Source of the DNA: Candidatus Omnitrophota bacterium
Lineage (GTDB): Bacteria > Omnitrophota > Omnitrophia > Omnitrophales > Aquincolibacteriaceae
Assembly (NCBI GenBank): GCA_018883425.1
Contig: VFQY01000001.1
Coordinates: 432 to 64,431 of the forward strand
Direction of reading: 5' to 3'
Length of the DNA: 64,000 nucleotides
This document shows positions 2,384 through 25,361 of this stretch, piece after piece. The notes under the pieces were generated by a model that saw only the letters and a program-made list of their open reading frames with translations, did no database searches and was not told where the DNA came from. How positions within the stretch are numbered: the first letter of the stretch is position 1; each line of letters opens with the position of its first letter. The translations under genes were made by a program, and so were the position numbers.

Positions 2384-2473
2384 GCTCCGGATTTTACCGG
2401 CCCCTGGAAGAGGCCGGACGCAATTGTTGGGACGCCGCCGCGGGCGTCCCGGTTGTTGTCGGGTATGAAACGG

Positions 2474-3418: not shown

Positions 3419-3460
3419 GTTCTTATCTCCTTAAGAAGACCGCGCCAGGCGCGGAATGTT

Positions 3461-4567: not shown

Positions 4568-4694
4568 CTCCTTGAAAAGTCGAGGGTAAAGTCCTCATGC
4601 TTGGGAGGGGGTCCCGAAGAGCACTTGACTTTAGGGGTTTTCATTGCAAAATAAGGCCGTCTTAATTCTTTCCTGCGAGAAGCGCGTATTTTAT

Positions 4695-6268: not shown

Positions 6269-6368
6269 CGCAAGGTCTCTCCGTGCAAGCTTAGTCAATC
6301 CGGCTTTAAAACTCAATGACAAACCCGCCCGTTGCAAAAGAACCGCGATCTTTCTAAACTAGGGGTCC

Positions 6369-7442: not shown

Positions 7443-8436
7443 TTCCTTCTCACAGGAAGAAACTCTTCTTTTTACACCGCTGCCTTGCGACGCTCTGCGC
7501 GTGCGGGGCAAAGACAGGGTAAGCGTTCTTCACCGCCTCCTCACTCAGGATATCCGCGCCCTGGCGCCGAACCTCGGAACGGAATCCGCACTCTTGAACG
7601 CCCGGGGCAAAGTGCTCGCCCTCATGAAAGTCGAAGCGTTTGGGGATTCTCTGCGCATTTCTGTCGAACAAGACTTCGGAAAAAAAACCCGTGAGGCACT
7701 TGAAAAACTCATCATCACAGAAGATGTCCAAATCGAAAGCGAGGAGAACCTCGTGCGGATCATCCTTACGGGCCGGCGGGCAAGAACGATACTCGAAACG
7801 GCTTTCTCGCTGTCCTTAGCCCCGCTGCGCTCCGAAAGGTTCTTTGACCTTGCCGAATTTTCGTGGGGCGGGAATGCCGCTGTCCTTGCGGAAATTCGGC
7901 CGGATTTTTTTGAAGTCCTCCTTCCGGCGTCCTCCGCCCCTTCCTTCGAAGAGCGTCTTGTCCAATCGGAACAGGCGGCGCAGCTCAGCTGCCGAGACCT
8001 CGGAGGCTGGGAAGTTTATCGAATCGAACACGGTCTGGCGAAGCTCGGCATCGACATCACGGAGGAAGACACACTTCCGGAAACCGGATTGGACGGAATT
8101 CTAGCGAGCGGCACCAAGGGCTGTTACCCCGGTCAAGAAGTTGTCGCAAGAACGAATACCTACAGCGGTCATGCAAAAAAGTTGCGGGTCCTCATGTTCA
8201 CATCGCAAAGGGTTCCCAACCCGGGCAGCCCGATCTTTTCAGGGGGCGGGGAAATCGGCCGAATTACAAGCTCCTGCTTTTCAGCACGGCAGCAGAAAAC
8301 CATGAGTTTTGCATATCTCAGGAGAGGGCACTTCGAAATCGGCAGCAAAACGTTTTTGACGATCAACGGCCTCGAGTCAGAGACGGCCGTGCTCGACCCG
8401 CGGGATTTGAGAAATCAATCGGGCCGCCAAGGCTGA
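7429..8436 (+). CDS. ygfZ: YgfZ/CAF17-like folate-binding protein (GcvT-domain, Fe-S cluster repair/tRNA modification family)
   Basis: GcvT-like aminomethyltransferase fold signatures, including a conserved C-terminal KGCYPGQE motif. Overlaps the mutY stop by 14 bp. Confidence 0.65.
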   Translation: MTQPDSFSQEETLLFTPLPCDALRVRGKDRVSVLHRLLTQDIRALAPNLGTESALLNARGKVLALMKVEAFGDSLRISVEQDFGKKTREALEKLIITEDVQIESEENLVRIILTGRRARTILETAFSLSLAPLRSERFFDLAEFSWGGNAAVLAEIRPDFFEVLLPASSAPSFEERLVQSEQAAQLSCRDLGGWEVYRIEHGLAKLGIDITEEDTLPETGLDGILASGTKGCYPGQEVVARTNTYSGHAKKLRVLMFTSQRVPNPGSPIFSGGGEIGRITSSCFSARQQKTMSFAYLRRGHFEIGSKTFLTINGLESETAVLDPRDLRNQSGRQG

Positions 8437-10856
8437 TAATCAGGCACGGCTGAACAAAGCGCTCTGAGAATCGCGTCCCGATCCGAGCCCAGGGATGCCT
8501 GCTTAAGAAGGAATTCCATCTTCTTGCGAAAATCAGCGTCTGTGACGGGGGCTTCCCAAATTTGAATCTTGGAGCATTCGGTCGGGATCAACCGCTCGCC
8601 TTTCATCTGGATCTCCTCTTCGAGTTTCTCGCCCGGCCTGAGACCGATGTAGCGGATGGGAATCTGATCCGGCGCGGCGCCCATGAGCTGCATAAGATTA
8701 CGGGCTAAATCGGCAATCCTCAGAGGGTCGCCCATGTCCAGAACGAAAATTCTTTTACCTCCGCCGATCCTGGAGGCCTCCAGGATCAAAAAAACCGCCT
8801 CCGAGATATCCATAAAATAGCGTTTGACGTCCGGATGCGTCACGGTGACCGGACCGCCCCTTTCAATCTGGGATCTAAAAAGCGGGACGACGCTGCCCCG
8901 GCTGTTGAAAACGTTTCCAAAACGGACTGCCATGAACTGGGTTTTTGCGGAGCTCATGGTCTGCAGATAAAGTTCTCCGATCCGCTTCGTGGCCCCCATC
9001 ACGCTCGAGGGACGAATCGCTTTATCCGTGGAAACCATCACGAATTTTTCCGATTCAAACTGGGCCGCCAAATCCGCAGCATTGCGGGTACCGAGCACAT
9101 TATTCAGGATACCCTCGGCAACATGATGCTCGAGAAGCGGCACATGTTTGTAGGCCGCGGCGTGATAGACGATCTCGGGACGATGACTGGAAAAAACTTT
9201 TTCAAGAGCGGCGCGGTCCCGAATATCCCGCAGATAAGGCACCACCCGAACCCCGGAAGCTGCCGATGCCGCAAGCTCCATTTCGATCTCATAAAGATTA
9301 CTTTCTGACTGATCGACCAAAACGATTTCATGCGGATGATGCTCGTGAATTCTGCGGGCAAGCTCCGACCCGATGGATCCGCCGGCCCCAGTAATGAGAA
9401 TTCGCTTCCCGGCCAGAAAGTTTTCAAGACGGCCCGCATCCGCTTTGACCAAACTTCTTCCGAGAAGGTCGGCGACATCGACTTCTTTGAGCTGGAGCGG
9501 CACGATCTGGGGGGGCAGAATGTTTGCCATGCGCGGCATGATGCGGCAGATCAGATCCAAGCGCCTCCCTTCGCTGAGAATGGTCTGGATCGTTTGTCCT
9601 GAGACCTCTGTCAGCGCAATGATCAAGGCCTCGGCTTTTTTGACCCGGGCAGCCTGCGTCAGGTGATTCAACCCCCCGAGAACTTTGATACCGTGAATGC
9701 GGACCCCCGCCTTGAGCGGGTCTTCATCCAGAATGCCGACCGGGCGGTAACCCAGGCCGGGCCTTTTCATCAACTCTCGGATCAAACGCTCGCCGGCGTC
9801 ACCCGCCCCGAGGATAAGCGTATTTTTCGACTTGTGTCCGGTGCGGGGAACGCGGAGACGCTCTGCCGTCACCTTAAAAAAAATACGTGAAAAGCCAAGC
9901 GCCAAAATCAGGATGAGCCAATCCAAAACCAGCGTGGATCGGGGCTGATAACCCGTCTGTGCCAAAAAACTTACGACAGGCAGGAGCAGAGAACCCGCCG
10001 TCACGGACTTGACGATCGCAATCAGTTCGGTCAGTCCCAGATATTGCCAAAGCGTCTGATAAAGTCCGAAAGAAACGTAACAAAACCCCCGGAGGATCAG
10101 CACCCAGGGCAGCATGGCCCAGAAAATGGCGAGCTGATCTTCGGGGACCTGATTTTCGAACCTCAGAAGAAAGGCAGCCGCGTAGGAGGCTGCGGCCAGC
10201 ACCAAATCAAACGCAAGAAAAGAAATTCTGCGCCGGCTTTCGAAGATATATCCCCATTTAAAAAAACCGGAAGTCAGAGCGGGCACGGCTCGGAAAACGA
10301 TTTTCAAATCCTTCAGGGGGTCCCGGCTTCGCACATAATCCAGATCGCACTGTATTTTTGCTTTCAGGATATGTTCCCGGTAAAAAGCTTCAATATCTCC
10401 GGTCTCGGGCAAAATTTTCTCTTCATCGCGCCAAAGAAGCTGCGATGAACCCAAAATGCCGGGCCTGGTTTCAAAAATTTCAGCGCGCTCGCTCTCCGCA
10501 TAAAGATCCATCATGCGGGGCACCTCGGGACGCGGCCCCACCAGGCTCATCTCGCCTAAAACCACATTGAAAAGCTGCGGAAGCTCATCCAGCTTTGACT
10601 TTCTTAGAACACGGCCGATCCTCGTAATCCGCACATCGTTCTTAGCCGTAATTTGTGCGCCGAGGGATTCAGCGTCTTCCACCATCGTACGGAATTTCCA
10701 AATCCAGAACACCTGACCTCTCCGCCCCACTCTCTCTTGCCGAAAAAAAACACTGCCCTCGGCATCAAGCTTGATGAGCAGCGCAGTCAAAATCATCAGC
10801 GGGGACAGAACCGCGAGAGCCGTCAGACTGACCGCAAAATCCAGAACTCTCTTCAT
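8415..10856 (-). CDS. Bifunctional fusion: N-terminal PglC/WbaP-type phosphoglycosyl transferase domain, a polytopic membrane segment, then a C-terminal PglF/WbpM/CapD-type UDP-sugar 4,6-dehydratase domain
   Basis: N-terminus MKRVLDFAVSLTALAVLSPLMILTALLIKLDAEGSVFFRQERVGRRGQVFWIWKFRTM...DELPQLFNVVLGEMSLVGPRP matches bacterial sugar transferases. After four predicted TM helices, RILITGAGGSIGSELARRI...VDQSESNLYEIEMEL...YHAAAYKHVPLLE matches Polysacc_synt_2 (CapD) dehydratases. Confidence 0.8.
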   Translation of the reverse strand: MKRVLDFAVSLTALAVLSPLMILTALLIKLDAEGSVFFRQERVGRRGQVFWIWKFRTMVEDAESLGAQITAKNDVRITRIGRVLRKSKLDELPQLFNVVLGEMSLVGPRPEVPRMMDLYAESERAEIFETRPGILGSSQLLWRDEEKILPETGDIEAFYREHILKAKIQCDLDYVRSRDPLKDLKIVFRAVPALTSGFFKWGYIFESRRRISFLAFDLVLAAASYAAAFLLRFENQVPEDQLAIFWAMLPWVLILRGFCYVSFGLYQTLWQYLGLTELIAIVKSVTAGSLLLPVVSFLAQTGYQPRSTLVLDWLILILALGFSRIFFKVTAERLRVPRTGHKSKNTLILGAGDAGERLIRELMKRPGLGYRPVGILDEDPLKAGVRIHGIKVLGGLNHLTQAARVKKAEALIIALTEVSGQTIQTILSEGRRLDLICRIMPRMANILPPQIVPLQLKEVDVADLLGRSLVKADAGRLENFLAGKRILITGAGGSIGSELARRIHEHHPHEIVLVDQSESNLYEIEMELAASAASGVRVVPYLRDIRDRAALEKVFSSHRPEIVYHAAAYKHVPLLEHHVAEGILNNVLGTRNAADLAAQFESEKFVMVSTDKAIRPSSVMGATKRIGELYLQTMSSAKTQFMAVRFGNVFNSRGSVVPLFRSQIERGGPVTVTHPDVKRYFMDISEAVFLILEASRIGGGKRIFVLDMGDPLRIADLARNLMQLMGAAPDQIPIRYIGLRPGEKLEEEIQMKGERLIPTECSKIQIWEAPVTDADFRKKMEFLLKQASLGSDRDAILRALCSAVPDYQPWRPD

Positions 10857-12088
10857 AACGGCCTCTTGAGGTCTGCGCTCTGCAGGATTTCGAGAACTTT
10901 CTGAGCGACGAAGCCGGCATCTTCATCCGACATCCCGGGATAGATGGGCAGAGAAACAATTCTTTTGAAGCAGTCTGAGGTGTTGGGAAAATCTTCGGGC
11001 TTGAGCCCGAGTTTTTCCTGATAATACGGGTGTTCACTGAGCGGAATAAAATGGACGCTTGTTCCGATACCGGCAGAGCGCATCTTCTCCATGAATTCGT
11101 CGCGGCTGATCGAAAGCTTCTCGATCTCAAGCTTGATCACAAACAAATGCCAGGCATGCGACTCAAAACTGCCGCAAGCCGGTGTACGGAGAAGTTCACA
11201 GCCCCGGAAGGCCTCCAAATAGCTCGCCGCGATCCTCCGCCGCCTCTCGAGGAAGCGTGCGCTTTTTCGAAGCTGCTGAAGACCAATGGCTGCCTGAATA
11301 TCGCTCATATTATATTTTCGGCCGAGCGTCACCACATCGTAGCGCCAAGCGCCTGGATTTTGATAGCGCTTCCAGGCGTCGCGCGTAATCCCATGAAGGG
11401 AAAGCAGCCGCGCCCGCTCGATCACCTCATCATGAGGCGTCACCAGCATTCCTCCTTCACCCGTGGAAAGTGTCTTGGTCGCGTAGAAACTAAAACAAGT
11501 AGCATCGCCGAAAACGCCGACTTTTTTTCCTTCGTAAAGCGTTGGAAAACTGTGCGCGGCATCTTCCACCAGCTTCAAACTGTAGCGCTCTGCGATCCTC
11601 TTGATGGGATTCAGCTCACACGCCTGCCCCGCAAAGTGGACAGGCAAAATAGCCCGGGTCCGGGCGGTGATTTTTTCCTCGATTCTGTCAGCCAGAATGT
11701 TGAAGCTCTCAGGACTGCAATCCACATAAACCGGTTTAGCCTTGCAATAGAGAATGACCTCAGAAGTGGCGACAAAAGTAAAAGGGACCGTAATCACCTC
11801 GTCGCCCTCTTTGATCCCAAGAGCCTCGAGCGCTACGTGCATCGCTGCCGTCCCGCTATTGACGGCCAACGCGTGTTTGACCCCGATCTCGGCCGCAAAG
11901 GCCCGCTCGAAATCCCGGACTTTCGGCCCCGTCGTAATCCAACCGCTGCGGATCGTCTCCGTCACTTCGCGGATTTCTTCTTCTCCATACTCCGGTTTAT
12001 GAAATGGAATCTTAAGCTCTTCCAAAGCTGTCCCCTTCGGCAAGAAATTTTTCAAGGATAGAAACAATGCGCTCCGCTGCGCCGCCAT
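10853..12088 (-). CDS. DegT/DnrJ/EryC1/StrS-family PLP-dependent sugar aminotransferase (ArnB/PglE-like)
   Basis: IPFHKPEYGEEEIREV...GWITTGPKVRDFERAF and the ATKTLSTGEGGMLV lysine region. Track ORF starts at 12166; nearest ATG is at 12088. 4-bp overlap with the downstream fusion gene. Confidence 0.85.
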   Translation of the reverse strand: MAAQRSALFLSLKNFLPKGTALEELKIPFHKPEYGEEEIREVTETIRSGWITTGPKVRDFERAFAAEIGVKHALAVNSGTAAMHVALEALGIKEGDEVITVPFTFVATSEVILYCKAKPVYVDCSPESFNILADRIEEKITARTRAILPVHFAGQACELNPIKRIAERYSLKLVEDAAHSFPTLYEGKKVGVFGDATCFSFYATKTLSTGEGGMLVTPHDEVIERARLLSLHGITRDAWKRYQNPGAWRYDVVTLGRKYNMSDIQAAIGLQQLRKSARFLERRRRIAASYLEAFRGCELLRTPACGSFESHAWHLFVIKLEIEKLSISRDEFMEKMRSAGIGTSVHFIPLSEHPYYQEKLGLKPEDFPNTSDCFKRIVSLPIYPGMSDEDAGFVAQKVLEILQSADLKRPL

Positions 12089-13109
12089 CCCAAAGAGGGA
12101 TAGCTGTCGGAACAGGCCGCGGCTCTTCCAGGATCCTGAAAGCCTGCTCAATGATTTTCTTTTCATGGACAGCGCAGAGCCGGTTTGTTCCCTGAGTCAA
12201 AGTCACCGGCCTTTCGGTATTCTTTCGCAGAGTGATGCAGGGGACAGCCAAAGCTGAAGTTTCCTCCTGCAGTCCTCCCGAGTCCGTCATCACGAAGGCG
12301 GATCCGGCCGTCAGCGAGAGAAAGTCGAGATACCCCAGCGGTTCCGTCAGCGTTACCCCCGACCATTCAGCTCCGAGGACTTCGATGCGCTGAAGTGTCC
12401 GCGGGTGAATGGGAAACACAACGGGGATCCGGGATGCAATTTGACAGACCGCACGGTTCAACTCAAGAAGCGTTGAGGGCCGATCGACATTCTCAGGACG
12501 ATGCAGAGTCAAAAGAGCGTAAGATTTCTCCCGAAAACCGTACCTCTCCCAAGCCCTTCTCGTCAGGGCTTTTTCGAGCCCCCGAATCAGGCTGTCGATC
12601 ATGGTATTGCCGCTATCGAATATCTTAGCCGCGTCAACACCTTCGCGGAGTAAATTTTTCCGCGCACTCGGCTCCGTGGCAAAGAGCAGCGACGAGAGGT
12701 GATCCGTAATAACCCGGTTGATTTCCTCCGGCATAGCTCGATCAAAAGATCTCAAACCTGACTCGATATGAGCAACAGGTACTTGCATTTTTGCCGCCGT
12801 CCAAGCACAGGCGGCTGTCGAATTCACATCGCCGGCAACAATCACAATTCGGGGCTCGGCTTGAGCGCAGACGGGTTCAAAGGCCTTCATGATCTCTGCT
12901 GTTTGAGATGCATGCGAACCCGAGCCGGCACCCAAATTCATATCCGGCTTCTGCAAATCGAGATCCCGAAAAAAAACATCCGACATCTCGGGGGAGTAAT
13001 GCTGTCCCGTATGAACAAGCATATGCGGAAGTTTCCTGCGGCTGATCTCGCGGACTACCGGGGCCATTTTGACAAAGTTGGGACGGGCACCGACAACCGA
13101 TAGGATCAT
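12012..13109 (-). CDS. wecB: UDP-N-acetylglucosamine 2-epimerase (non-hydrolysing)
   Basis: MILSVVGARPNFVKMAPV...HTGQHYS...SGSHASQTAEIM...VAGDVNSTAA...HIESGLRSFDRAMPEEINR. Confidence 0.9.
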   Translation of the reverse strand: MILSVVGARPNFVKMAPVVREISRRKLPHMLVHTGQHYSPEMSDVFFRDLDLQKPDMNLGAGSGSHASQTAEIMKAFEPVCAQAEPRIVIVAGDVNSTAACAWTAAKMQVPVAHIESGLRSFDRAMPEEINRVITDHLSSLLFATEPSARKNLLREGVDAAKIFDSGNTMIDSLIRGLEKALTRRAWERYGFREKSYALLTLHRPENVDRPSTLLELNRAVCQIASRIPVVFPIHPRTLQRIEVLGAEWSGVTLTEPLGYLDFLSLTAGSAFVMTDSGGLQEETSALAVPCITLRKNTERPVTLTQGTNRLCAVHEKKIIEQAFRILEEPRPVPTAIPLWDGGAAERIVSILEKFLAEGDSFGRA

Positions 13110-14335
13110 GACGGCACCGGACTGATCAGCATATGGATGAATTCTTCCTGGATCTTTCTTCGGTCATAACGTTTTTTAACTTCAGCTTTGCCGGCATCAC
13201 CCATGGTCTTACGCAATCCTGCATCGCGGGACAAGACCTCCACGGCCTCGACAAACTGCTCGGTATCTTTGGGTTTGACCACAATACCGCAGCCGCAGCC
13301 TCTGACAATACCTGCAGCTTCCCCCTCTGCCGCCAAAATGACGGGTTTAGCCGCAGCCATCGCTTCATAGAGCTTGGATGGAACAGCTCCTGGTAGAGTT
13401 CCAAGCAGGGGAACCATGAGAATATCGGCCGCCGCGAGCATTTCAGGAACTCTGTCGTACGGTCTTCCATCAAAAAAAGACACATTTTTAAGGTCTCTAT
13501 CTTTCGCCAGCTTTATCAATGCCGATTTTGCGGGCCCGTCACCGGCAAGAACATAATGGACCGGAAGATGCCGGGTTCGGGATGCCGACTCCAGTATTTG
13601 TTCCAACCCCTGCGCCAGACCGTGAAGGCCGGCGTAAAGAGCAAGACACGGTTTTTGAGGATGGTTCGGGATTCCCGGAAAGACCTCTTGGCGCCGGGCC
13701 GCCGGGAGAAGATCGAACTTTTCGAGATCCGCCCCATTAGAGAAAAGTGCTGTTCTCACTCCGGGAAACCTCGATGAGATGTCAGCAATAATCTCCCGCG
13801 ACTGTCCTGTCACCAGCCAGGCCCTTTGGTAGAAAAAGGCTTCCATCAGACTGCATGCATGAAAAACAGGACCGCCCGCGCGGAGCTTACCGAGCCGAAC
13901 GGCGGAGTCCGGCCAAAGGTCTGACACATTGAAAATCCAGCGGGCACGCTTCCATCGGCTGAGAAGAAATCCGCTGATTCCAAGGAAAAGAGGCGGACTT
14001 TCTGTAAAAAAATAATCGGCTTTCGGCAGGAAAAAAATGCCGTAGACAAACGACGCCAAAACAAACGAGAAATAATTGAAAAGTCTTTTCAGCAGACCCT
14101 CGCTCTGTGCAGGATAAATAGGCGTTCGAATCACCTGAACACCCCGAACATCCTCCTTGCGGAAAAACCCGCCGTAGCCCGGATAAATCCTTCCCTCCGG
14201 ATAGCTCGGCATCGCTGTCAGCACAGTCACCGAATGGCCGCGCAGAACGAAGGCCTCCGCCAAGCTCGAAAGTCTGGCCTGCGGGGCCCCTTTCTCCGGC
14301 GGATAATACTGTGTGTGAAGGATAATCTTCATCAT
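13106..14335 (-). CDS. GT4-family glycosyltransferase (WcaI-like, N-terminal GT4 domain)
   Basis: IILHTQYYPPEKGAPQARL N-terminus; C-terminal GT-B catalytic half. Preceded by a good RBS (AAGGAGAGAGG). Confidence 0.8.
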   Translation of the reverse strand: MMKIILHTQYYPPEKGAPQARLSSLAEAFVLRGHSVTVLTAMPSYPEGRIYPGYGGFFRKEDVRGVQVIRTPIYPAQSEGLLKRLFNYFSFVLASFVYGIFFLPKADYFFTESPPLFLGISGFLLSRWKRARWIFNVSDLWPDSAVRLGKLRAGGPVFHACSLMEAFFYQRAWLVTGQSREIIADISSRFPGVRTALFSNGADLEKFDLLPAARRQEVFPGIPNHPQKPCLALYAGLHGLAQGLEQILESASRTRHLPVHYVLAGDGPAKSALIKLAKDRDLKNVSFFDGRPYDRVPEMLAAADILMVPLLGTLPGAVPSKLYEAMAAAKPVILAAEGEAAGIVRGCGCGIVVKPKDTEQFVEAVEVLSRDAGLRKTMGDAGKAEVKKRYDRRKIQEEFIHMLISPVPS

Positions 14336-14450
14336 CGAGTGCGCCTCTCTCCTTCTTTTTAGTGCGCGAAAATAGACATTTCTTAATGACGAGCCTTGAT
14401 CAAACTGTCCCCCCCTGAAAATGACCGTAAATCCCGCGAGGCGAAAAATA

Positions 14451-14510
14451 GCATCCGGGAGCAGACCCCCCGAAGGTTCCGCATGCGCCCCCGGATGGGA
14501 GTTTTTTCTC
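14451..14510. promoter_or_regulatory. Stem-loop (CATCCGGG / CCCGGATG arms, about 30-nt loop with CGCATGCG palindrome) plus T-run, inside a 287-bp ORF-free gap in the glycan operon. Possible attenuator or internal terminator, or protecting hairpin
   Basis: Inverted repeat at 14451-14458 and 14489-14496. T-runs on both strands (TTTTTT on plus after the stem, TATTTTT on minus). Confidence 0.25.
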
Positions 14511-14622
14511 CACTCCTTTCCGGAAAGCTTAGGCTTTCATCGACTCAGGGAACAGCCGCCTTGATTTCCGGGCGTTTCGCAAGCTGTCACGATTCAGAAG
14601 ATCCCCGGAGGACCTAAACACT

Positions 14623-15252
14623 TCATAACTTCTTCGTCATCAAAAGACCCTGGCCGCCGTCGTCGACGGCGCCGCTCAAGACCCACCCGAGCTTTCTATG
14701 AAAAAATAACGCCTGATGATTATTCTTATCCACAGACAGGTGCATCTGTTTTTTTCCCCTGTGCCTAGCCTCTTTCGCAAGCTCACCCATAAGACGCCGG
14801 CCCAAACCTGTGCGCTGAAACTCAGGATCCACCGCAAGCACTAGGACGCCGAAACTGTCTTCGCATATAGAAAACCGAGGTTTCGTATCACGTTTCCCCA
14901 ACAGCCGTATCAAAGGGGCAAGGACCTTCCGTAAAAATCGAGCCTGAACCCATGCGCGGGGACTTACGAGCAAGCGGCAAAAAAGAAATCGTCGATTTTT
15001 TTTGACGAAACCGCTCACTGCGCCTTTAAAAGCGCCTCCCATGGCATATGCGGCTAATTTTCCGTCCGACGAAATTCCCACCGAAAAACATTCATGCGGT
15101 CCCGTCAGAAGCCAACGATAATAACGCCGCACGGCCTCAACGCCCAAGAGAGTCAGAAAGCTGTCCGGAAAAGCCCTCCTATGGAGACGCGCCGCTTTGT
15201 CCGCATCTTCACCACCCAGTCGGAATAAGGAGAGAGAGGTCTGTGGAGTCAT
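14623..15252 (-). CDS. GNAT-family N-acetyltransferase
   Basis: C-terminal LAVDPEFQRTGLGRRLMGELAKEA acetyl-CoA binding motif. ATGA overlap with the upstream CapK-like gene. Confidence 0.7.
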   Translation of the reverse strand: MTPQTSLSLFRLGGEDADKAARLHRRAFPDSFLTLLGVEAVRRYYRWLLTGPHECFSVGISSDGKLAAYAMGGAFKGAVSGFVKKNRRFLFCRLLVSPRAWVQARFLRKVLAPLIRLLGKRDTKPRFSICEDSFGVLVLAVDPEFQRTGLGRRLMGELAKEARHRGKKQMHLSVDKNNHQALFFHRKLGWVLSGAVDDGGQGLLMTKKL

Positions 15253-16658
15253 AACTTGTCTGAAGGAGCCTCATCCTTTGACATGCGGCTGATCACTGCG
15301 CGGAATTTGCCGTTCGAACCGCGGGGAATAAGCCGGCTGTATTGGATCTGGATCAGAGCCGGTCCGGTGAGGTTCTTCATGCGTTGAATCACGGCTTGTT
15401 CCTCCTCTGCAGAAAGGGGTCTCGAACAATTCATAACAACGCTGAAGACATCCAATTTTTCCTGAACAATCTGAGATTCCCGGACAGGGAGACCGGAAAA
15501 AACGGGGTTGAAATACCAGACCTTGCGGCCGTCCCTGAGGCTGAGAACATCGTGTTTGCGGCCATCGAAAGCTCGTATTGCTGGAAGCTTTCTACCGCAG
15601 GCGCAGGGCGGGGCATCTTCCGGGGCCAGACTCAGCCTATCGCCCGTTTCATAGCGAATCAACGGCATGTCGCGATGAATAAAACCTGTTGTGATCAGCT
15701 CGCCGATCTGACCTGCTGGCACATGGACCCCTTGTTCCAAGACTTCCAGATAACCCGTTTCGGGCCACAGATGCAAAACACCCTTCTCGCATTCTCCCGC
15801 GGCGGCGCCCATTTCTGACATCCCGTAGGTTTCCCGGACAGGGCATCGGAAAGCTTTTTCCATAGCCGCCTTTTGCGACGGACTGACAGGCTCTGCGTTG
15901 GTTATCACAACCTTCAGCGGAGGCACCGTCAAATTGCGCTCAAGAATTTCACAGGCTAAAAAATGCAATGCTGAGGTATAACCCAGCAGATAAACAGCCC
16001 GGCATTTGCGGACCGCTTCCAGACATTCCGGGATGAATTCAGGAAATAGGTGATAACAGGAGATATAGAGCTGATTCGAGCCGGCGTTCCAAACCCAGAA
16101 AGGAGGCTTTCGAGCAGCGGGCCCAACGATCTTCTGGGCTCCTATAATCGCCCATCGATCATGACGCGAGACTCCGTACCACCTCCTCCAGCGCGCCTCA
16201 AACAAAGCATACCACTCCCGCAAGGTATCGCGGCTTTGCCAAAGTTTGAGGGGAGTCCCTGTCGTTCCGCCGGTCGACTCAAGATAAAGTGTTTCTCTCC
16301 GGCCGGATTCTCTGAGAAAAGCCTGAGGATTTGAGCGCACCTCCTCTTTCGAAAGGGTGGGCCAGTTCTGCAAATCTCTCCAATCCGACAGATCTCCCTG
16401 TTTTCTTCTCGACTCCCACATCGCTCGGTAGTAGGGTACTTTCCTGGCCGCATCCTCCAAAAAATCGGGAAGTTTCTCATCCCTCCAAGCTTTCCATTGC
16501 GACGCATCCCAAAACTCTCTCTCAAGCGCTTCAGCAACCAACCTCTCGGTTTCCGGCCCGTAACGAAGCATCCTGAGATGGTATCCCCAAAGACTCGCGC
16601 CAAGGCATCGGAAAGTATACGGCAGCGCTTGATAAATACAGGTCACCCGAGAATTCAT
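15249..16658 (-). CDS. CapK/PaaK-like adenylate-forming enzyme (phenylacetate-CoA ligase / F390 synthetase family)
   Basis: STGGTTGTPLK P-loop-like AMP-binding motif of the PaaK family. Track ORF starts at 16721; ATG at 16658 makes an ATGA overlap with the upstream GT. Confidence 0.75.
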   Translation of the reverse strand: MNSRVTCIYQALPYTFRCLGASLWGYHLRMLRYGPETERLVAEALEREFWDASQWKAWRDEKLPDFLEDAARKVPYYRAMWESRRKQGDLSDWRDLQNWPTLSKEEVRSNPQAFLRESGRRETLYLESTGGTTGTPLKLWQSRDTLREWYALFEARWRRWYGVSRHDRWAIIGAQKIVGPAARKPPFWVWNAGSNQLYISCYHLFPEFIPECLEAVRKCRAVYLLGYTSALHFLACEILERNLTVPPLKVVITNAEPVSPSQKAAMEKAFRCPVRETYGMSEMGAAAGECEKGVLHLWPETGYLEVLEQGVHVPAGQIGELITTGFIHRDMPLIRYETGDRLSLAPEDAPPCACGRKLPAIRAFDGRKHDVLSLRDGRKVWYFNPVFSGLPVRESQIVQEKLDVFSVVMNCSRPLSAEEEQAVIQRMKNLTGPALIQIQYSRLIPRGSNGKFRAVISRMSKDEAPSDKL

Positions 16659-17746
16659 CGTTCCATACCCTCTTTCCCCGTGAGAAGAATTTTTTCCCAT
16701 TCCGGAAGAATAGAATCCCAACCGAATCGTTCAGCGTTAACTCTCGCTTCACGCGAAAACCGGACTGCAAGCTCCGGCTGACACAGCAGCTGCTTGACAG
16801 CTTCTGCAGCCCCTTTCGGATCTCCCGGGTTAAATAAAAGCGCGTTCTTTCCTGCCTCCCAGATTCTAGGGATTTCCCCCGCGTTCGAGCTAACGATGCA
16901 AAGACCGCTCGCCGCAGCTTCCATGACAGAAACGCCGAAGCTTTCAAGGGTTGTGGTATTGAGAAAAATGTCATGCTCTTGGAAGAGTTCGGGAAGTTTT
17001 GCATTAGGGATTCCTCCGCAAAGACGGACCGCCTTCTCTAGCCCAAGCTCGCGAATCGTCTGAAGAACTTTCCGGAACGTTCCATCTCCGGTGTCCGGAC
17101 CCGCCATGGTGAGCACTGCTTCAGGGAAGTCCTGGAGAATCAGCGCCAGAGTAGTCAAAGCAGTTTGAGGATCATAAATTTTATGGAAAGCTCGAACCCA
17201 ACAAAGCCGGGGACGCGGGCTCCGCCTTGAATGAAAAAAAAACTTTTTTAAATCGATGCCGTTCGGCAGGTACTCGATTTCGATCCCCGGGCAGCTCAGA
17301 GAATCCCTAAGATGGTAGGATGGACAAATTACCCGCTCTGCTTGGATTAGAAACCGTTTGAATTTTTTTTCAAAATGCCCTGCAAACGCAGGCAGATCCC
17401 CTCCATGCAGAGCTGCGACATAGGGTTTTCGAAGCACCCTCAGAAGAAAACCAGCTGCCTCGGCCCAATAAAAGGCTCTTCCGCTGTACACCAGAATGAC
17501 CGCTTTGTCATAAGCACCGCGGGAAAACACAATAGCGCACGCCATGCTAAGTGCGCGGATCCACCGAGTTTTGAAAACAGAGGCTCGGGAAACTCTCCAA
17601 CCCCGGGAGGACAGCCGCGACAAGAGATCTTCATAGGGGGATTTGATGGGCGATGCCTTGATGAAATTCCCGATAAAGAGCACCCGCTTTCCACTTTCTC
17701 GTTCCCCGAGAGTTTTGTCAGGCATATCTGCCTTCTTCCCTATCAA
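16655..17746 (-). CDS. GT4-family glycosyltransferase
   Basis: C-terminal GT-B motif FLNTTTLESFGVSVMEAAASGLCIVSSNAGEIP. Confidence 0.8.
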   Translation of the reverse strand: MIGKKADMPDKTLGERESGKRVLFIGNFIKASPIKSPYEDLLSRLSSRGWRVSRASVFKTRWIRALSMACAIVFSRGAYDKAVILVYSGRAFYWAEAAGFLLRVLRKPYVAALHGGDLPAFAGHFEKKFKRFLIQAERVICPSYHLRDSLSCPGIEIEYLPNGIDLKKFFFHSRRSPRPRLCWVRAFHKIYDPQTALTTLALILQDFPEAVLTMAGPDTGDGTFRKVLQTIRELGLEKAVRLCGGIPNAKLPELFQEHDIFLNTTTLESFGVSVMEAAASGLCIVSSNAGEIPRIWEAGKNALLFNPGDPKGAAEAVKQLLCQPELAVRFSREARVNAERFGWDSILPEWEKILLTGKEGMER

Positions 17747-18288
17747 GGTTCGTCATCGTGAACTTCCTTCACGGCCCTGGCTGAAACGCCGGCATCGAGC
17801 GTATTATCAGGACTCTTGCCGGCAGTTGCGCAGGAATTTTCGGCCAAAATGCATCCGGCCCCAATAACCGCCCCATCGAGAACAGAGGCATGAGTCCCAA
17901 CCCATGTACCGCGTCCGATACGAATGGGCCGGGCAATAACCTTCCCTTTTCGGAACGAACCGCTTTTTCGTGTGTGCCTCCCGCTCGCCACGACAGCATA
18001 AGGCGAGATCATCACGTCATCTTCGATACACACGTCATGATTTGCAAGGATCACCACCCCATAGGCAAGATAAACGTCCTGGCCCAGATGAATTCGAGAG
18101 GGTTGATAAAATGATACATACCGCCCCAAAACGAGCCGGGGCCCGAATTCAGCAGAAAAGAAAGATGCCAACCAACCCCGAAAACGCATCAAGGAAGCTC
18201 GGTCCGGCATCCATGCGCAAAGAAAAAGAACCGTACGAAGCGGCCAATCATGACGTAATTGAATCCGAAAATTACGCACCCTGTTCAC
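17743..18288 (-). CDS. Hexapeptide-repeat (left-handed beta-helix) sugar O-/N-acetyltransferase (WcaF/PglD-like)
   Basis: Repeating [LIV]G..x..[LIV] hexads: IRIGRGTWVGTHASVLDGAVIGAGCILAENS. Confidence 0.8.
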   Translation of the reverse strand: MNRVRNFRIQLRHDWPLRTVLFLCAWMPDRASLMRFRGWLASFFSAEFGPRLVLGRYVSFYQPSRIHLGQDVYLAYGVVILANHDVCIEDDVMISPYAVVASGRHTRKSGSFRKGKVIARPIRIGRGTWVGTHASVLDGAVIGAGCILAENSCATAGKSPDNTLDAGVSARAVKEVHDDEP

Positions 18289-19447
18289 CTCTCCAAAGCT
18301 GAAGATGTTCGGCCATCATCTCAACTTGACGATCAATCACAACGCTGCGCGCCAAATCGAAACCCGATCGGATCATCTGCATTCTGCTCTCAGAATCACC
18401 CATGAGGTCGAGCAGCGCCTCTGCAATATCGTGAGGCATCTGAGGGGGGACGATCCTTAAGGCCTTTGCGGCATATTCAGAAATCGACCCCACGTCTGTC
18501 GCAATCACAGGAAGCCCTTGCGAGAACGCCTCACTGATTGCACGGGGGAAACCTTCCGAAGAACGTGAAGCGGTCACAAAAAAATCCGCCTCCCGATAAT
18601 AGTTCCAAAGCTGCGGCCCAAGGGGAACATACCCGTGATAAAAAACCCGCTCTGAAACACCTGCATCTCGGGCTCTTCCAAAGACCCTCTCCAAAACCCT
18701 ATCCCGAGGATCTAGCGGGCCAACGAGATCCCATCGAACAGAAACACCTTTATTCGAGAGAAGAATCACCGCTTCGAGAACATCCTCGAGGCCTTTTGCG
18801 CTATCCATGCGGCCGGTATAGAGAAGCCTGATAACTTGCCCCCGGCAAGTGTCTTCCCGGTAAAAAAAATCGTTTTCCCCAAACGTGCTCGTCCGAACTT
18901 CTACTAATTTCGCAGCGACACCTTCCAACTGATGAAAGAGCGGACGATTGTTCACAAACGTTAAGGCCCGGCGGCAAAGTTTATTTTGCTGACTTCGGTT
19001 CCATCGGCTCCACATTGAAATCCCTAGCCGTTTTAATCCCGAACAGGCAAGGCTTGAGATCCCTTTTTCGTAATCCCCAACAAGCAGCAAGGCCAGCGGG
19101 ATGTGAGGGGCTCGGCTTGCAAGGGCTTTTAAAAGCGGGGAGGGGCCCCGGAGCAGCAATAAGTCAACCTCTCGGAGCTGCTGCCTGACCCTCCCCGCGA
19201 TTTGATGGCCGAAAAGAATCTGAAGGATTGCGCGCTGATGCTCCCCCAGGCTGCACAAGCTCACATTCCGAGCCTTGATTCTGCAATCCATCATCGCCGC
19301 CTCCCCGGACGCAGGCGAGGGCATAAAGCAGACGATCCTCTCGAAATGTCTCGCAAGCCTTTCCACAAAAACCGCCTGATAACCCGGCATATAGAGGCCG
19401 TCCTGTTTCCTCAGAGCCGGCAGATGGTAGTAATAACCCAGCTTCAT
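18272..19447 (-). CDS. GT4-family glycosyltransferase
   Basis: C-terminal EGFPRAISEAFSQGLPVIATDVGSISEY. Track ORF extends to 19642; ATG at 19447 gives an ATGA overlap with the upstream Wzy-like gene. Confidence 0.75.
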   Translation of the reverse strand: MKLGYYYHLPALRKQDGLYMPGYQAVFVERLARHFERIVCFMPSPASGEAAMMDCRIKARNVSLCSLGEHQRAILQILFGHQIAGRVRQQLREVDLLLLRGPSPLLKALASRAPHIPLALLLVGDYEKGISSLACSGLKRLGISMWSRWNRSQQNKLCRRALTFVNNRPLFHQLEGVAAKLVEVRTSTFGENDFFYREDTCRGQVIRLLYTGRMDSAKGLEDVLEAVILLSNKGVSVRWDLVGPLDPRDRVLERVFGRARDAGVSERVFYHGYVPLGPQLWNYYREADFFVTASRSSEGFPRAISEAFSQGLPVIATDVGSISEYAAKALRIVPPQMPHDIAEALLDLMGDSESRMQMIRSGFDLARSVVIDRQVEMMAEHLQLWRGEQGA

Positions 19448-24215: not shown

Positions 24216-24308
24216 TCAAAGACTCCGGACTTCTCGATTTATTTCCGATTCGAACAGCAAAAAAACCGGCTCATTTGCCTTGCGCCGATGCAGCCATGAT
24301 TTGCGGCT

Positions 24309-25343: not shown

Positions 25344-25361
25344 AGCTCCCCCTGCAGTATC

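What the first reader, a model, noticed from the sequence alone, without database searches (positions are those of the whole stretch)
8415..10856. Unusual single-polypeptide fusion of a PglC-type phosphoglycosyl transferase to a PglF/WbpM-type UDP-sugar 4,6-dehydratase
The 813-aa ORF begins with a complete small-PGT module (reentrant helix LDFAVSLTALAVLSPLMILTALLI, then catalytic DEL/PRP motifs). It then runs through four predicted TM helices and ends with a full CapD/Polysacc_synt_2 dehydratase (GAGGSIGSEL ... YHAAAYKHVP). In characterised bacillosamine-type pathways the dehydratase catalyses the first step and the PGT the last cytoplasmic step before glycosyltransfer, and they are separate proteins. 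The known bifunctional precedent, Neisseria PglB, fuses the PGT to an acetyltransferase instead. Fusing the first and fourth steps would physically couple nucleotide-sugar modification to membrane commitment. The pathway aminotransferase is immediately upstream with a 4-bp overlap.
Basis: partly seen in the sequence, partly recalled or inferred. Interest (0 to 1): 0.75.

Follow-up and report, generated by a model that had tools for sequence, protein, structure and literature searches.

The report
Sugar-priming enzyme fused to sugar dehydratase
One 813-residue membrane protein joins the enzyme that starts a cell-surface sugar chain to the enzyme that begins making its unusual first sugar; the join is real but common in uncultured bacteria, and probably arose when two neighbouring genes lost the stop codon between them.

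Summary
Window 8415..10856 on the MINUS strand is one uninterrupted 813-aa ORF. It reads, in order: small monotopic phosphoglycosyl transferase (PGT, aa 1-196), an 11-aa linker, four TM helices, a Rossmann-like domain, and a PglF/WbpM-type UDP-GlcNAc 4,6-dehydratase (aa 457-779). Catalytic residues of both enzymes are invariant across 62 fusion homologues. An independent assembly gives the same ORF, so it is not a chimera.

"Unusual" does not hold. Of 278 homologues retrieved, 184 have this architecture. That includes at least 57 clusters at 50% identity, from many phyla.

A DegT aminotransferase lies immediately upstream in every fused locus I examined. The same order, DegT -> small PGT -> 4TM-dehydratase, occurs as separate genes, some with only a stop codon and 0-9 nt between the last two. 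One example is Shigella sonnei wbgX-wbgY-wbgZ (49/43/39% identity). Stop-codon loss is therefore the likely origin.

The PGT domain lacks the diNAcBac signature of PglC and aligns end to end with WbgY. The primer sugar is probably a 4-amino-4,6-dideoxy-HexNAc, FucNAc4N-like rather than bacillosamine.

Verdict: an uncharacterised member of the known bifunctional monoPGT class. Interest is modest.

The parts
8415..10856 (-). Whole fused gene, 813 aa plus stop: PGT, linker, 4TM, Rossmann-like domain, dehydratase
   Evidence: ORF list and translation; Pfam; AF2 model with mean pLDDT 90.4
10269..10856 (-). Small monotopic phosphoglycosyl transferase domain, aa 1-196
   Evidence: PF02397 E 3.9e-57. 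PglC 8E37 E 5e-26 over aa 1-144. 43% identity to S. sonnei WbgY over aa 1-196
10764..10850 (-). Re-entrant membrane helix, aa 3-31, with the Ser18-Pro19 break
   Evidence: Hydropathy peak 2.24. AF2 helices 2-16 and 18-31. Aligns to the PglC Ser23-Pro24 helix
10584..10589 (-). PGT catalytic Asp90-Glu91 dyad
   Evidence: Aligned to PglC Asp93-Glu94. Invariant in 62 fusion proteins. Coordinates checked
10527..10535 (-). PGT Pro108-Arg109-Pro110 nucleotide-binding motif
   Evidence: Aligned to the PglC PRP motif. R109 and P110 invariant, P108 at least 90% conserved
10236..10268 (-). Join: an 11-aa linker, GFFKWGYIFES, aa 197-207
   Evidence: Lies between the end of the WbgY-like alignment (aa 196) and the start of the WbgZ-like alignment (aa 209). 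Median linker in 184 fusions is about 10 aa. pLDDT dips to 67-74 here
9852..10235 (-). Four transmembrane helices, aa 208-335, of the PglF/WbpM type
   Evidence: Hydropathy. AF2 helices 208-232, 239-262, 275-299, 306-335. Aligns with the N-terminus of WbgZ
9489..9830 (-). Cytoplasmic Rossmann-like domain, aa 343-456 (CoA_binding_3 / 'DUF' of LgPGTs and PglF-like dehydratases)
   Evidence: PF13727 E 6e-13. PDB 3NKL E 5e-7 over aa 343-478. Second stretch of the TIGR03025 match
8520..9488 (-). PglF/WbpM-type NAD-dependent UDP-GlcNAc 4,6-dehydratase domain, aa 457-779
   Evidence: PF02719 E 3.4e-105. C. jejuni PglF 5BJU E 1e-76. Foldseek TM-score 0.95 on the target, rmsd 2.0 A
9369..9389 (-). NAD-binding GAGGSIG, aa 490-496
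   Evidence: G490, G493, S494 and G496 invariant in 62 fusions. Coordinates checked
9021..9029 (-). Dehydratase catalytic Thr610-Asp611-Lys612, equivalent to PglF T395-D396-K397
   Evidence: Alignment to 5BJU 'STDKAVRP'. D611 and K612 invariant, T610 at least 90% conserved. PglF variant structures T395V and D396N/K397A are listed
8985..8999 (-). Met620-x-x-x-Lys624, replacing the SDR YxxxK as in PglF (M405)
   Evidence: Alignment to 5BJU. K624 invariant, M620 at least 90% conserved
10853..12025 (-). DegT-family UDP-4-keto-sugar aminotransferase. It overlaps the fused gene by 4 bp. The likely start is TTG 12025 (390 aa), not the 437-aa ATG ORF
   Evidence: PF01041 E 3.7e-129. 49% identity to S. 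sonnei WbgX, starting at ORF residue 53. Sequence at the start. Called as 390 aa in the independent assembly
12012..27200 (-). Rest of the co-directional glycan-assembly cluster: WecB 2-epimerase, GT4, GNAT, PaaK/CapK-like AMP ligase, GT1, WcaF-like hexapeptide acetyltransferase, GT1, Wzy_C protein, two ORFs without a Pfam family, GT1, SDR epimerase, MsbA/PglK-type ABC transporter
   Evidence: Pfam and NCBIfam scans

Best explanation
The gene encodes a bifunctional inner-membrane enzyme that both feeds and starts a lipid-linked glycan pathway.

Proposed pathway:
1. The C-terminal PglF/WbpM-type domain, held at the membrane by four TM helices and a Rossmann-like domain, uses bound NAD to convert UDP-GlcNAc to UDP-4-keto-6-deoxy-GlcNAc.
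2. The translationally coupled DegT aminotransferase converts this to a UDP-4-amino-4,6-dideoxy-HexNAc. This is most likely FucNAc4N-like and possibly N-acylated afterwards.
3. The N-terminal small monotopic PGT domain, anchored by a re-entrant helix, transfers the sugar-1-phosphate to undecaprenyl phosphate through its Asp-Glu dyad. That primes the glycan built by the glycosyltransferases, the Wzy_C protein and the ABC transporter encoded upstream.

Topology is self-consistent. The re-entrant helix leaves the PGT C-terminus in the cytoplasm, and an even number of TM helices returns the chain there for the dehydratase.

The fusion probably arose when the stop codon was lost between a tightly coupled, collinear gene pair (small PGT -> 4TM-dehydratase) that exists unfused in many bacteria. 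Its likely benefit is fixed 1:1 stoichiometry and co-localisation of the first and last cytoplasmic steps, not new chemistry.

Shown here: the architecture, intact catalytic residues, conservation, gene context, and collinearity with split modules. Inferred: the enzyme activities, the sugar identity, the order of steps and the benefit of fusion.
For: Domains and order.

PGT domain:
- Aligns with PglC and WbaP structures (E about 1e-25), with the DE dyad and PRP motif aligned.
- Aligns end to end with WbgY, 43% identity.

Dehydratase domain:
- Matches PglF 5BJU at E 1e-76 with TDK and MxxxK aligned.
- The model superposes at TM-score 0.95 and 2.0 A.

Both active sites are under selection. D90, E91, R109, P110, G490, G493, G496, S609, D611, K612 and K624 are invariant in 62 fusion proteins of 37-70% identity.

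The fusion is real and recurrent:
- 184 of 278 retrieved proteins are PGT-4TM/DUF-DH, including at least 57 clusters at 50% identity.
- Independent assemblies give the same ORF.

DegT lies immediately upstream of the fused gene in homologues of 70%, 42% and 41% identity.

Split collinear versions exist:
- DegT -> smPGT -> 4TM-DH is seen in L005, L027 and L043.
- The PGT stop and the dehydratase ATG are 0-9 nt apart and in the same frame in L002, L005, L007, L019 and L023.
- S. sonnei pSS_046 has aminotransferase / sugar transferase / dehydratase in the same order with a 14-nt gap. Identities are 49, 43 and 39%.
- Fusobacterium has the three genes adjacent in the order DH -> PGT -> DegT. An F. 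nucleatum small PGT is assigned UDP-FucNAc4N (PMC11626204, Table 1).

The 4TM/DUF part is of the dehydratase kind. My HMM scores 126-288 bits on unfused dehydratases against 53-92 bits on LgPGT N-termini.
Against: - No activity was measured.
- Identity to WbgX/Y/Z (39-49%) and to the Fusobacterium PGT (42%, E 3e-41) is far below the E of about 1e-61 at which small-PGT clusters become isofunctional (PMC11626204). The sugar assignment is therefore weak and C4 stereochemistry cannot be read from sequence.
- No PglD-like N-acetyltransferase is adjacent. The hexapeptide protein at 17743..18288 looks like a WcaF-type O-acetyltransferase. Whether the 4-amino group is acylated before transfer is unknown.
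- A large group of small PGTs uses the 4-keto product directly (PMC11626204), which would change the order of steps.
- The genome scan was cut at 600 stretches, and only one of its 80 best loci was truly fused. Frequency among species genomes is not measured.
- By dehydratase-only similarity, fused and unfused proteins interleave beyond the nearest 37 or so. A single simple origin is not shown.
Confidence: 0.72

Rival explanations
1. Consecutive-step coupling. The PGT domain takes the dehydratase product UDP-4-keto-6-deoxy-GlcNAc (UDP-KdgNAc) directly, as R. etli WreU and V. vulnificus WbfU do. The sugar is then finished, by amination or reduction, on the undecaprenyl-diphosphate carrier or by other routes. 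The fusion would then hand a labile keto-sugar from one active site to the next.
For: PMC11626204 (read) reports a large cluster of small PGTs specific for UDP-KdgNAc, with sugar modification after lipid attachment. Fusions of exactly these two enzymes recur in both orders (PGT-...-DH, and DH-PGT in P0195 and P0197) and without the 4TM/DUF module (P0201, P0218). The PGT domain lacks the diNAcBac signature.
Against: A DegT aminotransferase is directly upstream in every fused locus I examined and in the window overlaps the fused gene. To my knowledge, characterised DegT-family enzymes act on nucleotide sugars, not lipid-linked sugars. The best named matches of the PGT domain (S. sonnei WbgY, a Fusobacterium PGT) come from FucNAc4N-type three-gene modules. 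I could not compare directly with WreU or WbfU.
Confidence: 0.15
2. One reading: a bacillosamine (diNAcBac) pathway in which a PglC-type PGT is fused to PglF. A PglE-like aminotransferase and a PglD-like acetyltransferase act in between.
For: The dehydratase domain's best solved relative is C. jejuni PglF. The PGT domain's best solved relative is PglC. An aminotransferase is adjacent. Acetyltransferases (a GNAT and a hexapeptide protein) are in the cluster.
Against: - The GLLLP motif is absent; the region reads GAQITAKND.
- Aromatic-box Tyr118 is Met115 here.
- The alignment to PglC stops at aa 144, so Trp150, Phe154 and Phe197 have no counterpart (motif definition from PMC10186338).
- The aminotransferase is far closer to ArnB and WbgX than to PglE.
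- The hexapeptide protein resembles the O-acetyltransferase WcaF, not PglD. It scores 39 bits on the NeuD/PglB/VioB model against a cutoff of 161.
Confidence: 0.1
3. Pseudo-enzyme or scaffold. One of the two catalytic domains is inactive and serves only to anchor or regulate the other.
For: The Rossmann-like domain shared with LgPGTs has been proposed to be regulatory (PMC10942596). Some relatives add a response-regulator receiver domain (P0053, P0067, P0119).
Against: All known catalytic and cofactor-binding residues of both domains are invariant across 62 diverse fusions. No other small PGT domain was found among the cluster ORFs I scanned.
Confidence: 0.02
4. Artefact. An assembly chimera, or a missed stop or frameshift, joins two separate genes.
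For: Many genomes have the two genes separate, in the same frame, with a single stop codon between them. A sequencing error at that codon would therefore mimic a fusion.
Against: - The same uninterrupted ORF appears in an independent assembly (SRR19514065, one substitution) and on 7 and 3 further contigs.
- 184 homologues from NCBI, JGI, ENA and Logan have the same architecture.
- The linker is conserved in length.
- GC content is flat across the join.
Confidence: 0.01

Closest known systems
Shigella sonnei / Plesiomonas shigelloides form I O-antigen genes wbgX-wbgY-wbgZ (plasmid pSS_046, NC_007385.1 202976-206671)
   Same: Same three functions in the same order and orientation: DegT aminotransferase, 196-aa small PGT, 639-aa 4TM-Rossmann-dehydratase. 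Identities to the window are 49%, 43% (full length) and 39%. Only 14 nt separate the PGT and dehydratase genes.
   Different: There the PGT and the dehydratase are two proteins; here they are one. Identity is too low to transfer substrate specificity with confidence. That the S. sonnei O-antigen contains FucNAc4N, and the wbg gene names, come from my own knowledge and were not checked here.
Campylobacter PglF (PDB 5BJU) and PglC (PDB 8E37/8G1N) of the N-glycosylation pathway
   Same: These are the best solved relatives of the two catalytic domains. The PglF T395-D396-K397 and M405 equivalents are present, as are the PglC Asp-Glu dyad, PRP motif and Ser-Pro re-entrant helix.
   Different: They are separate proteins in Campylobacter. 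The PGT domain here lacks the GLLLP and aromatic-box signature of diNAcBac PGTs and diverges from PglC after residue 144.
Bifunctional monoPGTs (BiPGT class), e.g. Neisseria PglB (PGT + acetyltransferase)
   Same: A monotopic PGT core is fused to another catalytic domain of the same pathway. The class is defined in PMC10186338 and PMC11626204.
   Different: The partner here is a membrane-anchored 4,6-dehydratase, not an acetyltransferase or a glycosyltransferase. The survey that catalogued fusion partners (O'Toole, Imperiali and Allen, PNAS 2021, PMC7848588) is not held in the paper library. I could not check whether this partner is listed there.
Large monoPGTs (WbaP / WcaJ / EPS_sugtrans, TIGR03025)
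   Same: They contain the same three modules as the N-terminal 456 residues: 4 TM helices, a CoA_binding_3 Rossmann-like domain and a Bac_transf domain. TIGR03025 scores 314.8 bits (cutoff 295.55) in two stretches. The homology between the LgPGT and PglF N-terminal modules was noted as 'puzzling' in PMC10942596.
   Different: The order is permuted: the PGT comes first here and last in LgPGTs. The 4TM/DUF module is of the dehydratase type, scoring 126-288 bits on unfused dehydratases against 53-92 bits on LgPGT N-termini.
R. etli WreU and V. vulnificus WbfU: small PGTs that use UDP-4-keto-6-deoxy-GlcNAc
   Same: They show that a PGT can act directly on the product of a PglF-type dehydratase. 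Under that reading the fused steps would be consecutive (PMC11626204).
   Different: They are separate proteins.

Membership tests
Monotopic phosphoglycosyl transferase superfamily (Bac_transf, PF02397) | Profile match above the curated threshold | tested here: met
   193.1 bits against a cutoff of 27; aa 2-193 cover profile positions 1-176 of 179
Monotopic phosphoglycosyl transferase superfamily (Bac_transf, PF02397) | N-terminal re-entrant membrane helix with a Ser-Pro break | tested here: met
   Hydrophobic segment aa 3-33; S18-P19 aligned to PglC S23-P24. The AF2 helix breaks at residue 17. P19 is at least 90% conserved
Monotopic phosphoglycosyl transferase superfamily (Bac_transf, PF02397) | Asp-Glu catalytic dyad and PRP motif | tested here: met
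   D90-E91 and P108-R109-P110 aligned to PglC. Invariant in 62 homologues
Monotopic phosphoglycosyl transferase superfamily (Bac_transf, PF02397) | Transfer of sugar-1-phosphate to polyprenol phosphate | not testable with these tools
   Needs an enzyme assay
UDP-diNAcBac-specific PglC subfamily | GLLLP loop motif (Cc PglC 71-75) | tested here: not met
   The aligned region reads GAQITAKND with no Pro (motif from PMC10186338)
UDP-diNAcBac-specific PglC subfamily | Aromatic box Tyr118, Tyr122, Trp150, Phe154, Phe197 | tested here: not met
   Tyr118 is Met115 here and Tyr122 is Tyr119. The alignment ends before Trp150, and there is no free C-terminal loop to supply Phe197
PglF / WbpM / CapD-type membrane-bound UDP-GlcNAc 4,6-dehydratases (Polysacc_synt_2, PF02719) | Profile match and fold | tested here: met
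   351.9 bits against a cutoff of 20.2. PglF 5BJU E 1e-76. Foldseek TM-score 0.95, rmsd 2.0 A
PglF / WbpM / CapD-type membrane-bound UDP-GlcNAc 4,6-dehydratases (Polysacc_synt_2, PF02719) | Catalytic Thr-Asp-Lys triad and Met in place of the SDR Tyr; GxxGxxG NAD site | tested here: met
   T610-D611-K612, M620...K624 and G490-x-x-G493-x-x-G496
PglF / WbpM / CapD-type membrane-bound UDP-GlcNAc 4,6-dehydratases (Polysacc_synt_2, PF02719) | Four TM helices plus a Rossmann-like domain preceding the catalytic domain | tested here: met
   Aligns with WbgZ from its residue 13
PglF / WbpM / CapD-type membrane-bound UDP-GlcNAc 4,6-dehydratases (Polysacc_synt_2, PF02719) | Retaining 4,6-dehydration of UDP-GlcNAc | not testable with these tools
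   The inverting types PseB and FnlA score far below their cutoffs (150.8 against 407.75; 135.4 against 730). That argues against those families but is not a positive test
Bifunctional monoPGT (BiPGT) class | [quoted passage not shown] | tested here: met
   A dehydratase domain lies C-terminal to the PGT core on one ORF. Class definition is in PMC10186338 and PMC11626204
Large monoPGT (WbaP-like, TIGR03025) | 4TM bundle and Rossmann-like domain N-terminal to the PGT domain | tested here: not met
   The order here is PGT, then 4TM, then Rossmann. The TIGR03025 score exceeds its cutoff only by adding two out-of-order stretches
Neisseria PglB-type PGT-acetyltransferase fusion | Hexapeptide acetyltransferase domain on the same polypeptide | tested here: not met
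   No Hexapep or PglD_N hit in the 813-aa protein
wbgX-wbgY-wbgZ-type (FucNAc4N) initiation module | Collinear aminotransferase -> small PGT -> 4TM dehydratase, each homologous | tested here: met
   Order confirmed in NC_007385.1. Identities 49, 43 and 39%
wbgX-wbgY-wbgZ-type (FucNAc4N) initiation module | Product is UDP-2-acetamido-4-amino-2,4,6-trideoxy-D-galactose, and the PGT is specific for it | not testable with these tools
   Identity is well below the isofunctional threshold described in PMC11626204

The most novel reading that the evidence does not exclude
The fusion, together with the many stop-codon-separated PGT/dehydratase gene pairs, may be 'Rosetta-stone' evidence for a physical complex. 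In that reading, small monoPGTs normally dock onto the 4TM-plus-Rossmann module of PglF/WbpM-type dehydratases, much as the PGT domain sits beside the same module in large PGTs such as WbaP.

[quoted passage not shown] It would also imply a membrane metabolon. In its strongest form, the dehydratase product would be handed directly to the PGT.
Probability: 0.25. Interest if true: 0.55.

Novelty: new member of a known kind. Interest (0 to 1): 0.3.

Why it matters
The fusion gives guilt-by-fusion evidence that small PGTs of this type work with PglF/WbpM-type dehydratases and a DegT aminotransferase as one unit.

It corrects an annotation gap. The GenBank entry MBU3758310.1, a 99%-identical member of the same protein cluster, is named only 'NAD-dependent epimerase/dehydratase family protein'. 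That name hides the enzyme that initiates the glycan. Separately, TIGR03025 passes its cutoff on a protein that is not a large PGT.

It offers a natural single-chain construct for studying how full-length membrane-bound dehydratases sit relative to a PGT. That question was raised but left open by the WbaP structure work.

It does not reveal new chemistry or a new kind of system.

Tried and rejected
- Plus-strand reading. The plus-strand translation of 8415-10856 is full of stops; the ORF is on the minus strand.
- Literature. The key survey of monoPGT fusions (PNAS 2021, PMC7848588) is not held. Searches for PGT plus dehydratase-fusion terms and Pfam accessions found no description of this architecture. 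Its explicit prior description is therefore neither confirmed nor excluded.
- AFDB search for the same full-length fold. The library is not available.
- Genome-collection scan. It was cut at 600 stretches. The 'full-length' tblastn matches turned out mostly to be two adjacent genes, so it gives no frequency. It did reveal the split collinear pairs.
- WreU comparison. I looked for R. etli WreU among plasmid hits to test the keto-sugar rival. The Rhizobium phaseoli hit examined is not next to a WreQ-like gene, so the comparison was dropped.
- Inter-domain packing of the PGT against the 4TM/Rossmann module. Only pLDDT and pTM (0.60) are returned, with no coordinates or PAE, so this could not be judged.
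- Rfam. No RNA family was found anywhere in the window.
- Single origin of the fusion. The test was inconclusive. The nearest 37 or so relatives by dehydratase domain are nearly all fused, but further out fused and unfused proteins interleave.

Full report
**1. Observation**

The finding's coordinates hold an uninterrupted 813-codon ORF, but on the minus strand. The plus-strand translation is full of stops.

Pfam places three families in order:

| Family | Residues | E-value |
|---|---|---|
| Bac_transf PF02397 | 2-193 | 3.9e-57 |
| CoA_binding_3 PF13727 | 263-437 | 6e-13 |
| Polysacc_synt_2 PF02719 | 486-766 | 3.4e-105 |

Hydropathy gives one N-terminal hydrophobic segment (aa 3-33) and four more (aa 211-233, 241-265, 277-299, 307-329). 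An AlphaFold2 model built on 62 homologues has mean pLDDT 90.4 and pTM 0.60. It shows a broken helix 2-16/18-31 and four long helices at 208-232, 239-262, 275-299 and 306-335.

The upstream DegT gene ends at 10853, a 4-bp ATGA overlap. An AAGAGG ribosome-binding site lies 5 nt before the ATG of the fused gene.

**2. Is it an artefact?**

Reads are not available, but several lines argue against an artefact.

- The window's protein belongs to the cluster of GenBank MBU3758310.1, a Candidatus Omnitrophota MAG protein seen on 7 contigs, and is identical to it at the one residue that separates the two variants.
- A variant with one substitution (L396V) was assembled independently from run SRR19514065, with the same ORF and the same neighbours.
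- A 70% homologue occurs on 13 contigs from other samples. It has conserved synteny on the downstream side: GCV_T-like, MutY, hydrolase, IMPase, Icd, Mdh. This matches window 1-8436.
- GC content is flat across the join.

**3. How common is the architecture?**

- In the 5.8-billion-protein collection, 119 of the 120 best clusters (38-100% identity, about 790-1000 aa) carry PF02397, PF13727 and PF02719 together.
- Source names include Omnitrophota, KSB1, Nitrospirota, Deltaproteobacteria, Fibrobacterota, Gemmatimonadota, Chloroflexota and Nitrospinaceae. JGI already names them 'FlaA1/EpsC-like NDP-sugar epimerase / ... glycosyltransferase'.
184 are PGT-4TM/DUF-DH, including at least 57 representatives of 50%-identity clusters.
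- Other arrangements also exist: DH-PGT (P0195, P0197), PGT-DH without the 4TM/DUF module (P0201, P0218), and PGT-4TM/DUF without DH (P0210).
- L070 carries a DH-DegT fusion, and some relatives add a C-terminal receiver domain (P0053, P0067, P0119).

The fusion is therefore a recurrent theme and not a curiosity. 'Unusual' is not supported.

**4. Are both halves functional?**

*PGT half.*
- It aligns with PglC (8E37/8G1N, E about 1e-25) and WbaP.
- The Asp-Glu dyad (D90-E91), the PRP motif (108-110) and the Ser-Pro helix break (18-19) all match.

*Dehydratase half.*
- It matches C. jejuni PglF (5BJU) at E 1e-76.
- T610-D611-K612 and M620...K624 align to PglF T395-D396-K397 and M405.
- The model superposes on PglF with TM-score 0.95 and rmsd 2.0 A.

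*Conservation.* In an alignment of 62 fusion proteins (37-70% identity to the window), several catalytic and cofactor residues are invariant: D90, E91, R109, P110, G490, G493, G496, S609, D611, K612 and K624. Both active sites are thus under purifying selection.

**5. Where did the fusion come from?**

A scan of species-representative genomes was cut at 600 stretches, so it is not quantitative. It returned many loci whose tblastn match spanned residues 1 to about 800.

My domain parse showed that all but one of these (L001) are two genes: a small PGT followed at once by a 4TM-DUF-dehydratase. In L002, L005, L007, L019 and L023 the two are in the same frame, with one stop codon and 0-9 nt before the dehydratase ATG. 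A single substitution in that stop would give the window's architecture.

The window's join is only 11 residues (GFFKWGYIFES, aa 197-207). It lies between the end of the WbgY-like alignment and the start of the WbgZ-like alignment. Across 184 fusions the linker is short, with a median of about 10 aa.

The 4TM/DUF module is of the dehydratase type. It scores 126-288 bits on unfused dehydratases against 53-92 bits on LgPGT N-termini.

By dehydratase-only similarity, the nearest 37 or so proteins are nearly all fused. Further out, fused and unfused proteins interleave. This suggests repeated fusion or fission, but I did not build a tree.

**6. Context and the likely pathway**

DegT is immediately upstream of the fused gene in the window, in the 70% homologue, in a KSB1 MAG (42%) and in a 1.9-Mb contig (41%). 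Split genomes show the same DegT -> PGT -> dehydratase order (L005, L027, L043).

The best named relative of the PGT domain among plasmid records is the 'sugar transferase' of the Shigella sonnei form I O-antigen cluster. There the annotated order is aminotransferase / sugar transferase (196 aa) / epimerase-dehydratase (639 aa). Identities to the window are 49%, 43% (end to end) and 39%.

A Fusobacterium record has the three genes adjacent in the order DH -> PGT -> DegT. An F. nucleatum small PGT is assigned UDP-FucNAc4N (PMC11626204, Table 1).

By contrast, several features argue against a bacillosamine pathway:
- The diNAcBac signature of PglC-type PGTs (GLLLP, aromatic box; PMC10186338) is absent.
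- The aminotransferase is much closer to ArnB (E 2e-87) than to PglE (E 7e-37).
- The cluster's hexapeptide protein looks like a WcaF-type O-acetyltransferase and not like PglD.

I therefore favour a FucNAc4N-like 4-amino-4,6-dideoxy-HexNAc as the primer sugar. These identities are far below the level at which small-PGT clusters become isofunctional (PMC11626204), so this part is an inference held with low confidence.

The rest of the cluster (12012-27200, minus strand) encodes:
- WecB;
- four GT1/GT4 glycosyltransferases;
- a GNAT;
- a PaaK/CapK-like AMP ligase;
- a Wzy_C protein;
- an SDR epimerase;
- an MsbA/PglK-type ABC transporter.

This fits an en bloc lipid-linked glycan pathway.

**7. 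Mechanism and its rivals**

*Best model (confidence 0.72).* Both domains are active. The dehydratase makes UDP-4-keto-6-deoxy-GlcNAc, DegT aminates it, and the PGT domain transfers the sugar phosphate to Und-P. The fusion fixes stoichiometry and proximity. Topology is consistent: the re-entrant helix keeps the PGT C-terminus cytoplasmic, and four TM helices return the chain to the cytoplasm.

*Main rival (0.15).* The PGT uses the keto-sugar directly, as WreU and WbfU do (PMC11626204). The fused steps would then be consecutive. The conserved adjacent DegT argues against this but does not exclude it.

**8. Comparison with what is known, and novelty**

The protein meets the definition of a bifunctional monoPGT (PMC10186338, PMC11626204). 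It is a member of both the monoPGT and the PglF/WbpM families by every sequence feature I could test.

It is not a large PGT, because the module order is permuted, even though TIGR03025 passes its cutoff through two out-of-order stretches. It is also not a PglC-type diNAcBac PGT.

From memory, O'Toole, Imperiali and Allen (PNAS 2021) catalogued fusions of monoPGTs with sugar-modifying enzymes. That paper is not held, so I could not verify whether this partner is listed. No held paper describes it, and I know of no biochemical characterisation.

*Verdict.* This is a new, uncharacterised member of a known kind, widespread in databases. I score interest at 0.3.

*Most novel reading not excluded.* The fusion and the tight gene pairs may report a physical small-PGT/dehydratase complex mediated by the 4TM-Rossmann module. 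[quoted passage not shown] I give this a probability of about 0.25.

Noticed in passing
window 10853-12166 (-): The 437-aa ATG ORF of the DegT aminotransferase is probably too long. Homology to WbgX begins at ORF residue 53. A TTG at 12025 preceded by AAGGGGA gives a 390-aa protein that overlaps the end of WecB by 14 nt. The independent assembly also aa.
   Followed up: yes
window 14623-16721 (-): A GNAT acetyltransferase and a PaaK/CapK-like AMP-dependent ligase (DVU_1553 family, 122 bits, below its cutoff) sit between the glycosyltransferases. The 70% homologue's locus keeps the ligase (with a CapK_C domain) but swaps the GNAT and GT4 for a GT2 and a methyltransferase. This may mean an unusual N-acyl decoration of the amino sugar.
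   Followed up: partly
window 19444-20799 (-) and 25362-27200 (-): A Wzy_C-family protein (O-antigen ligase, polymerase or O-oligosaccharyltransferase family) and a fused MsbA/PglK-type ABC transporter lie in the same cluster. No Wzx-type flippase was recognised. The pairing recalls PglK-type flipping, but I did not examine it.
   Followed up: no
window 20796-21971 (-) and 22971-24215 (-): Two ORFs of 391 and 414 aa inside the glycan cluster have no Pfam family at E <= 1e-4.
   Followed up: no
window 28428-30315 (-): A second DegT aminotransferase (376 aa) and a TylF-type O-methyltransferase lie just beyond the ABC transporter. They are separated from it by a 210-aa plus-strand ORF with no Pfam hit. 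This may be a second sugar-modification module of the same locus.
   Followed up: no
P0195, P0197, P0201, P0218, P0210; L069 7701-11338; L070 5-2989: Other permutations of the same enzymes occur in relatives. They include dehydratase-PGT order, PGT-dehydratase without the 4TM/Rossmann module, and PGT-4TM/Rossmann without a dehydratase. In a Verrucomicrobiota MAG the last of these is followed by a separate 4TM-dehydratase. A Rokubacteria MAG has a dehydratase-DegT fusion.
   Followed up: partly
P0053, P0067, P0119 (L085 8001-10925): Some PGT-dehydratase fusions carry an extra C-terminal response-regulator receiver domain (PF00072). This hints at phosphorylation control of glycan initiation, in line with the EpsW-EpsZ report (PMC12802240).
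   Followed up: no
window 8415-10856 (-); GenBank MBU3758310.1: The public annotation 'NAD-dependent epimerase/dehydratase family protein' misses the PGT domain. Conversely, NCBIfam TIGR03025 (EPS_sugtrans, a large-PGT model) passes its cutoff by summing two out-of-order stretches. Automatic naming could go wrong either way.
   Followed up: yes
L003, L004, L026, L037, L040, L073 (Anaerolineales/Chloroflexi MAGs): In these loci a large PGT (4TM-DUF-PGT) is followed directly by a 4TM-DUF-dehydratase, or by one after a short SDR gene. Two copies of the homologous membrane module are therefore encoded side by side.
   Followed up: no
window 1-8436 and L081 10451-18460: The housekeeping flank (YgfZ-like GCV_T, MutY, alpha/beta hydrolase, inositol monophosphatase, isocitrate/isopropylmalate dehydrogenase, malate/lactate dehydrogenase) is syntenic with the 70% homologue's contig. 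The middle of the glycan cluster differs, as expected for a variable surface-glycan locus anchored at a conserved end.
   Followed up: partly
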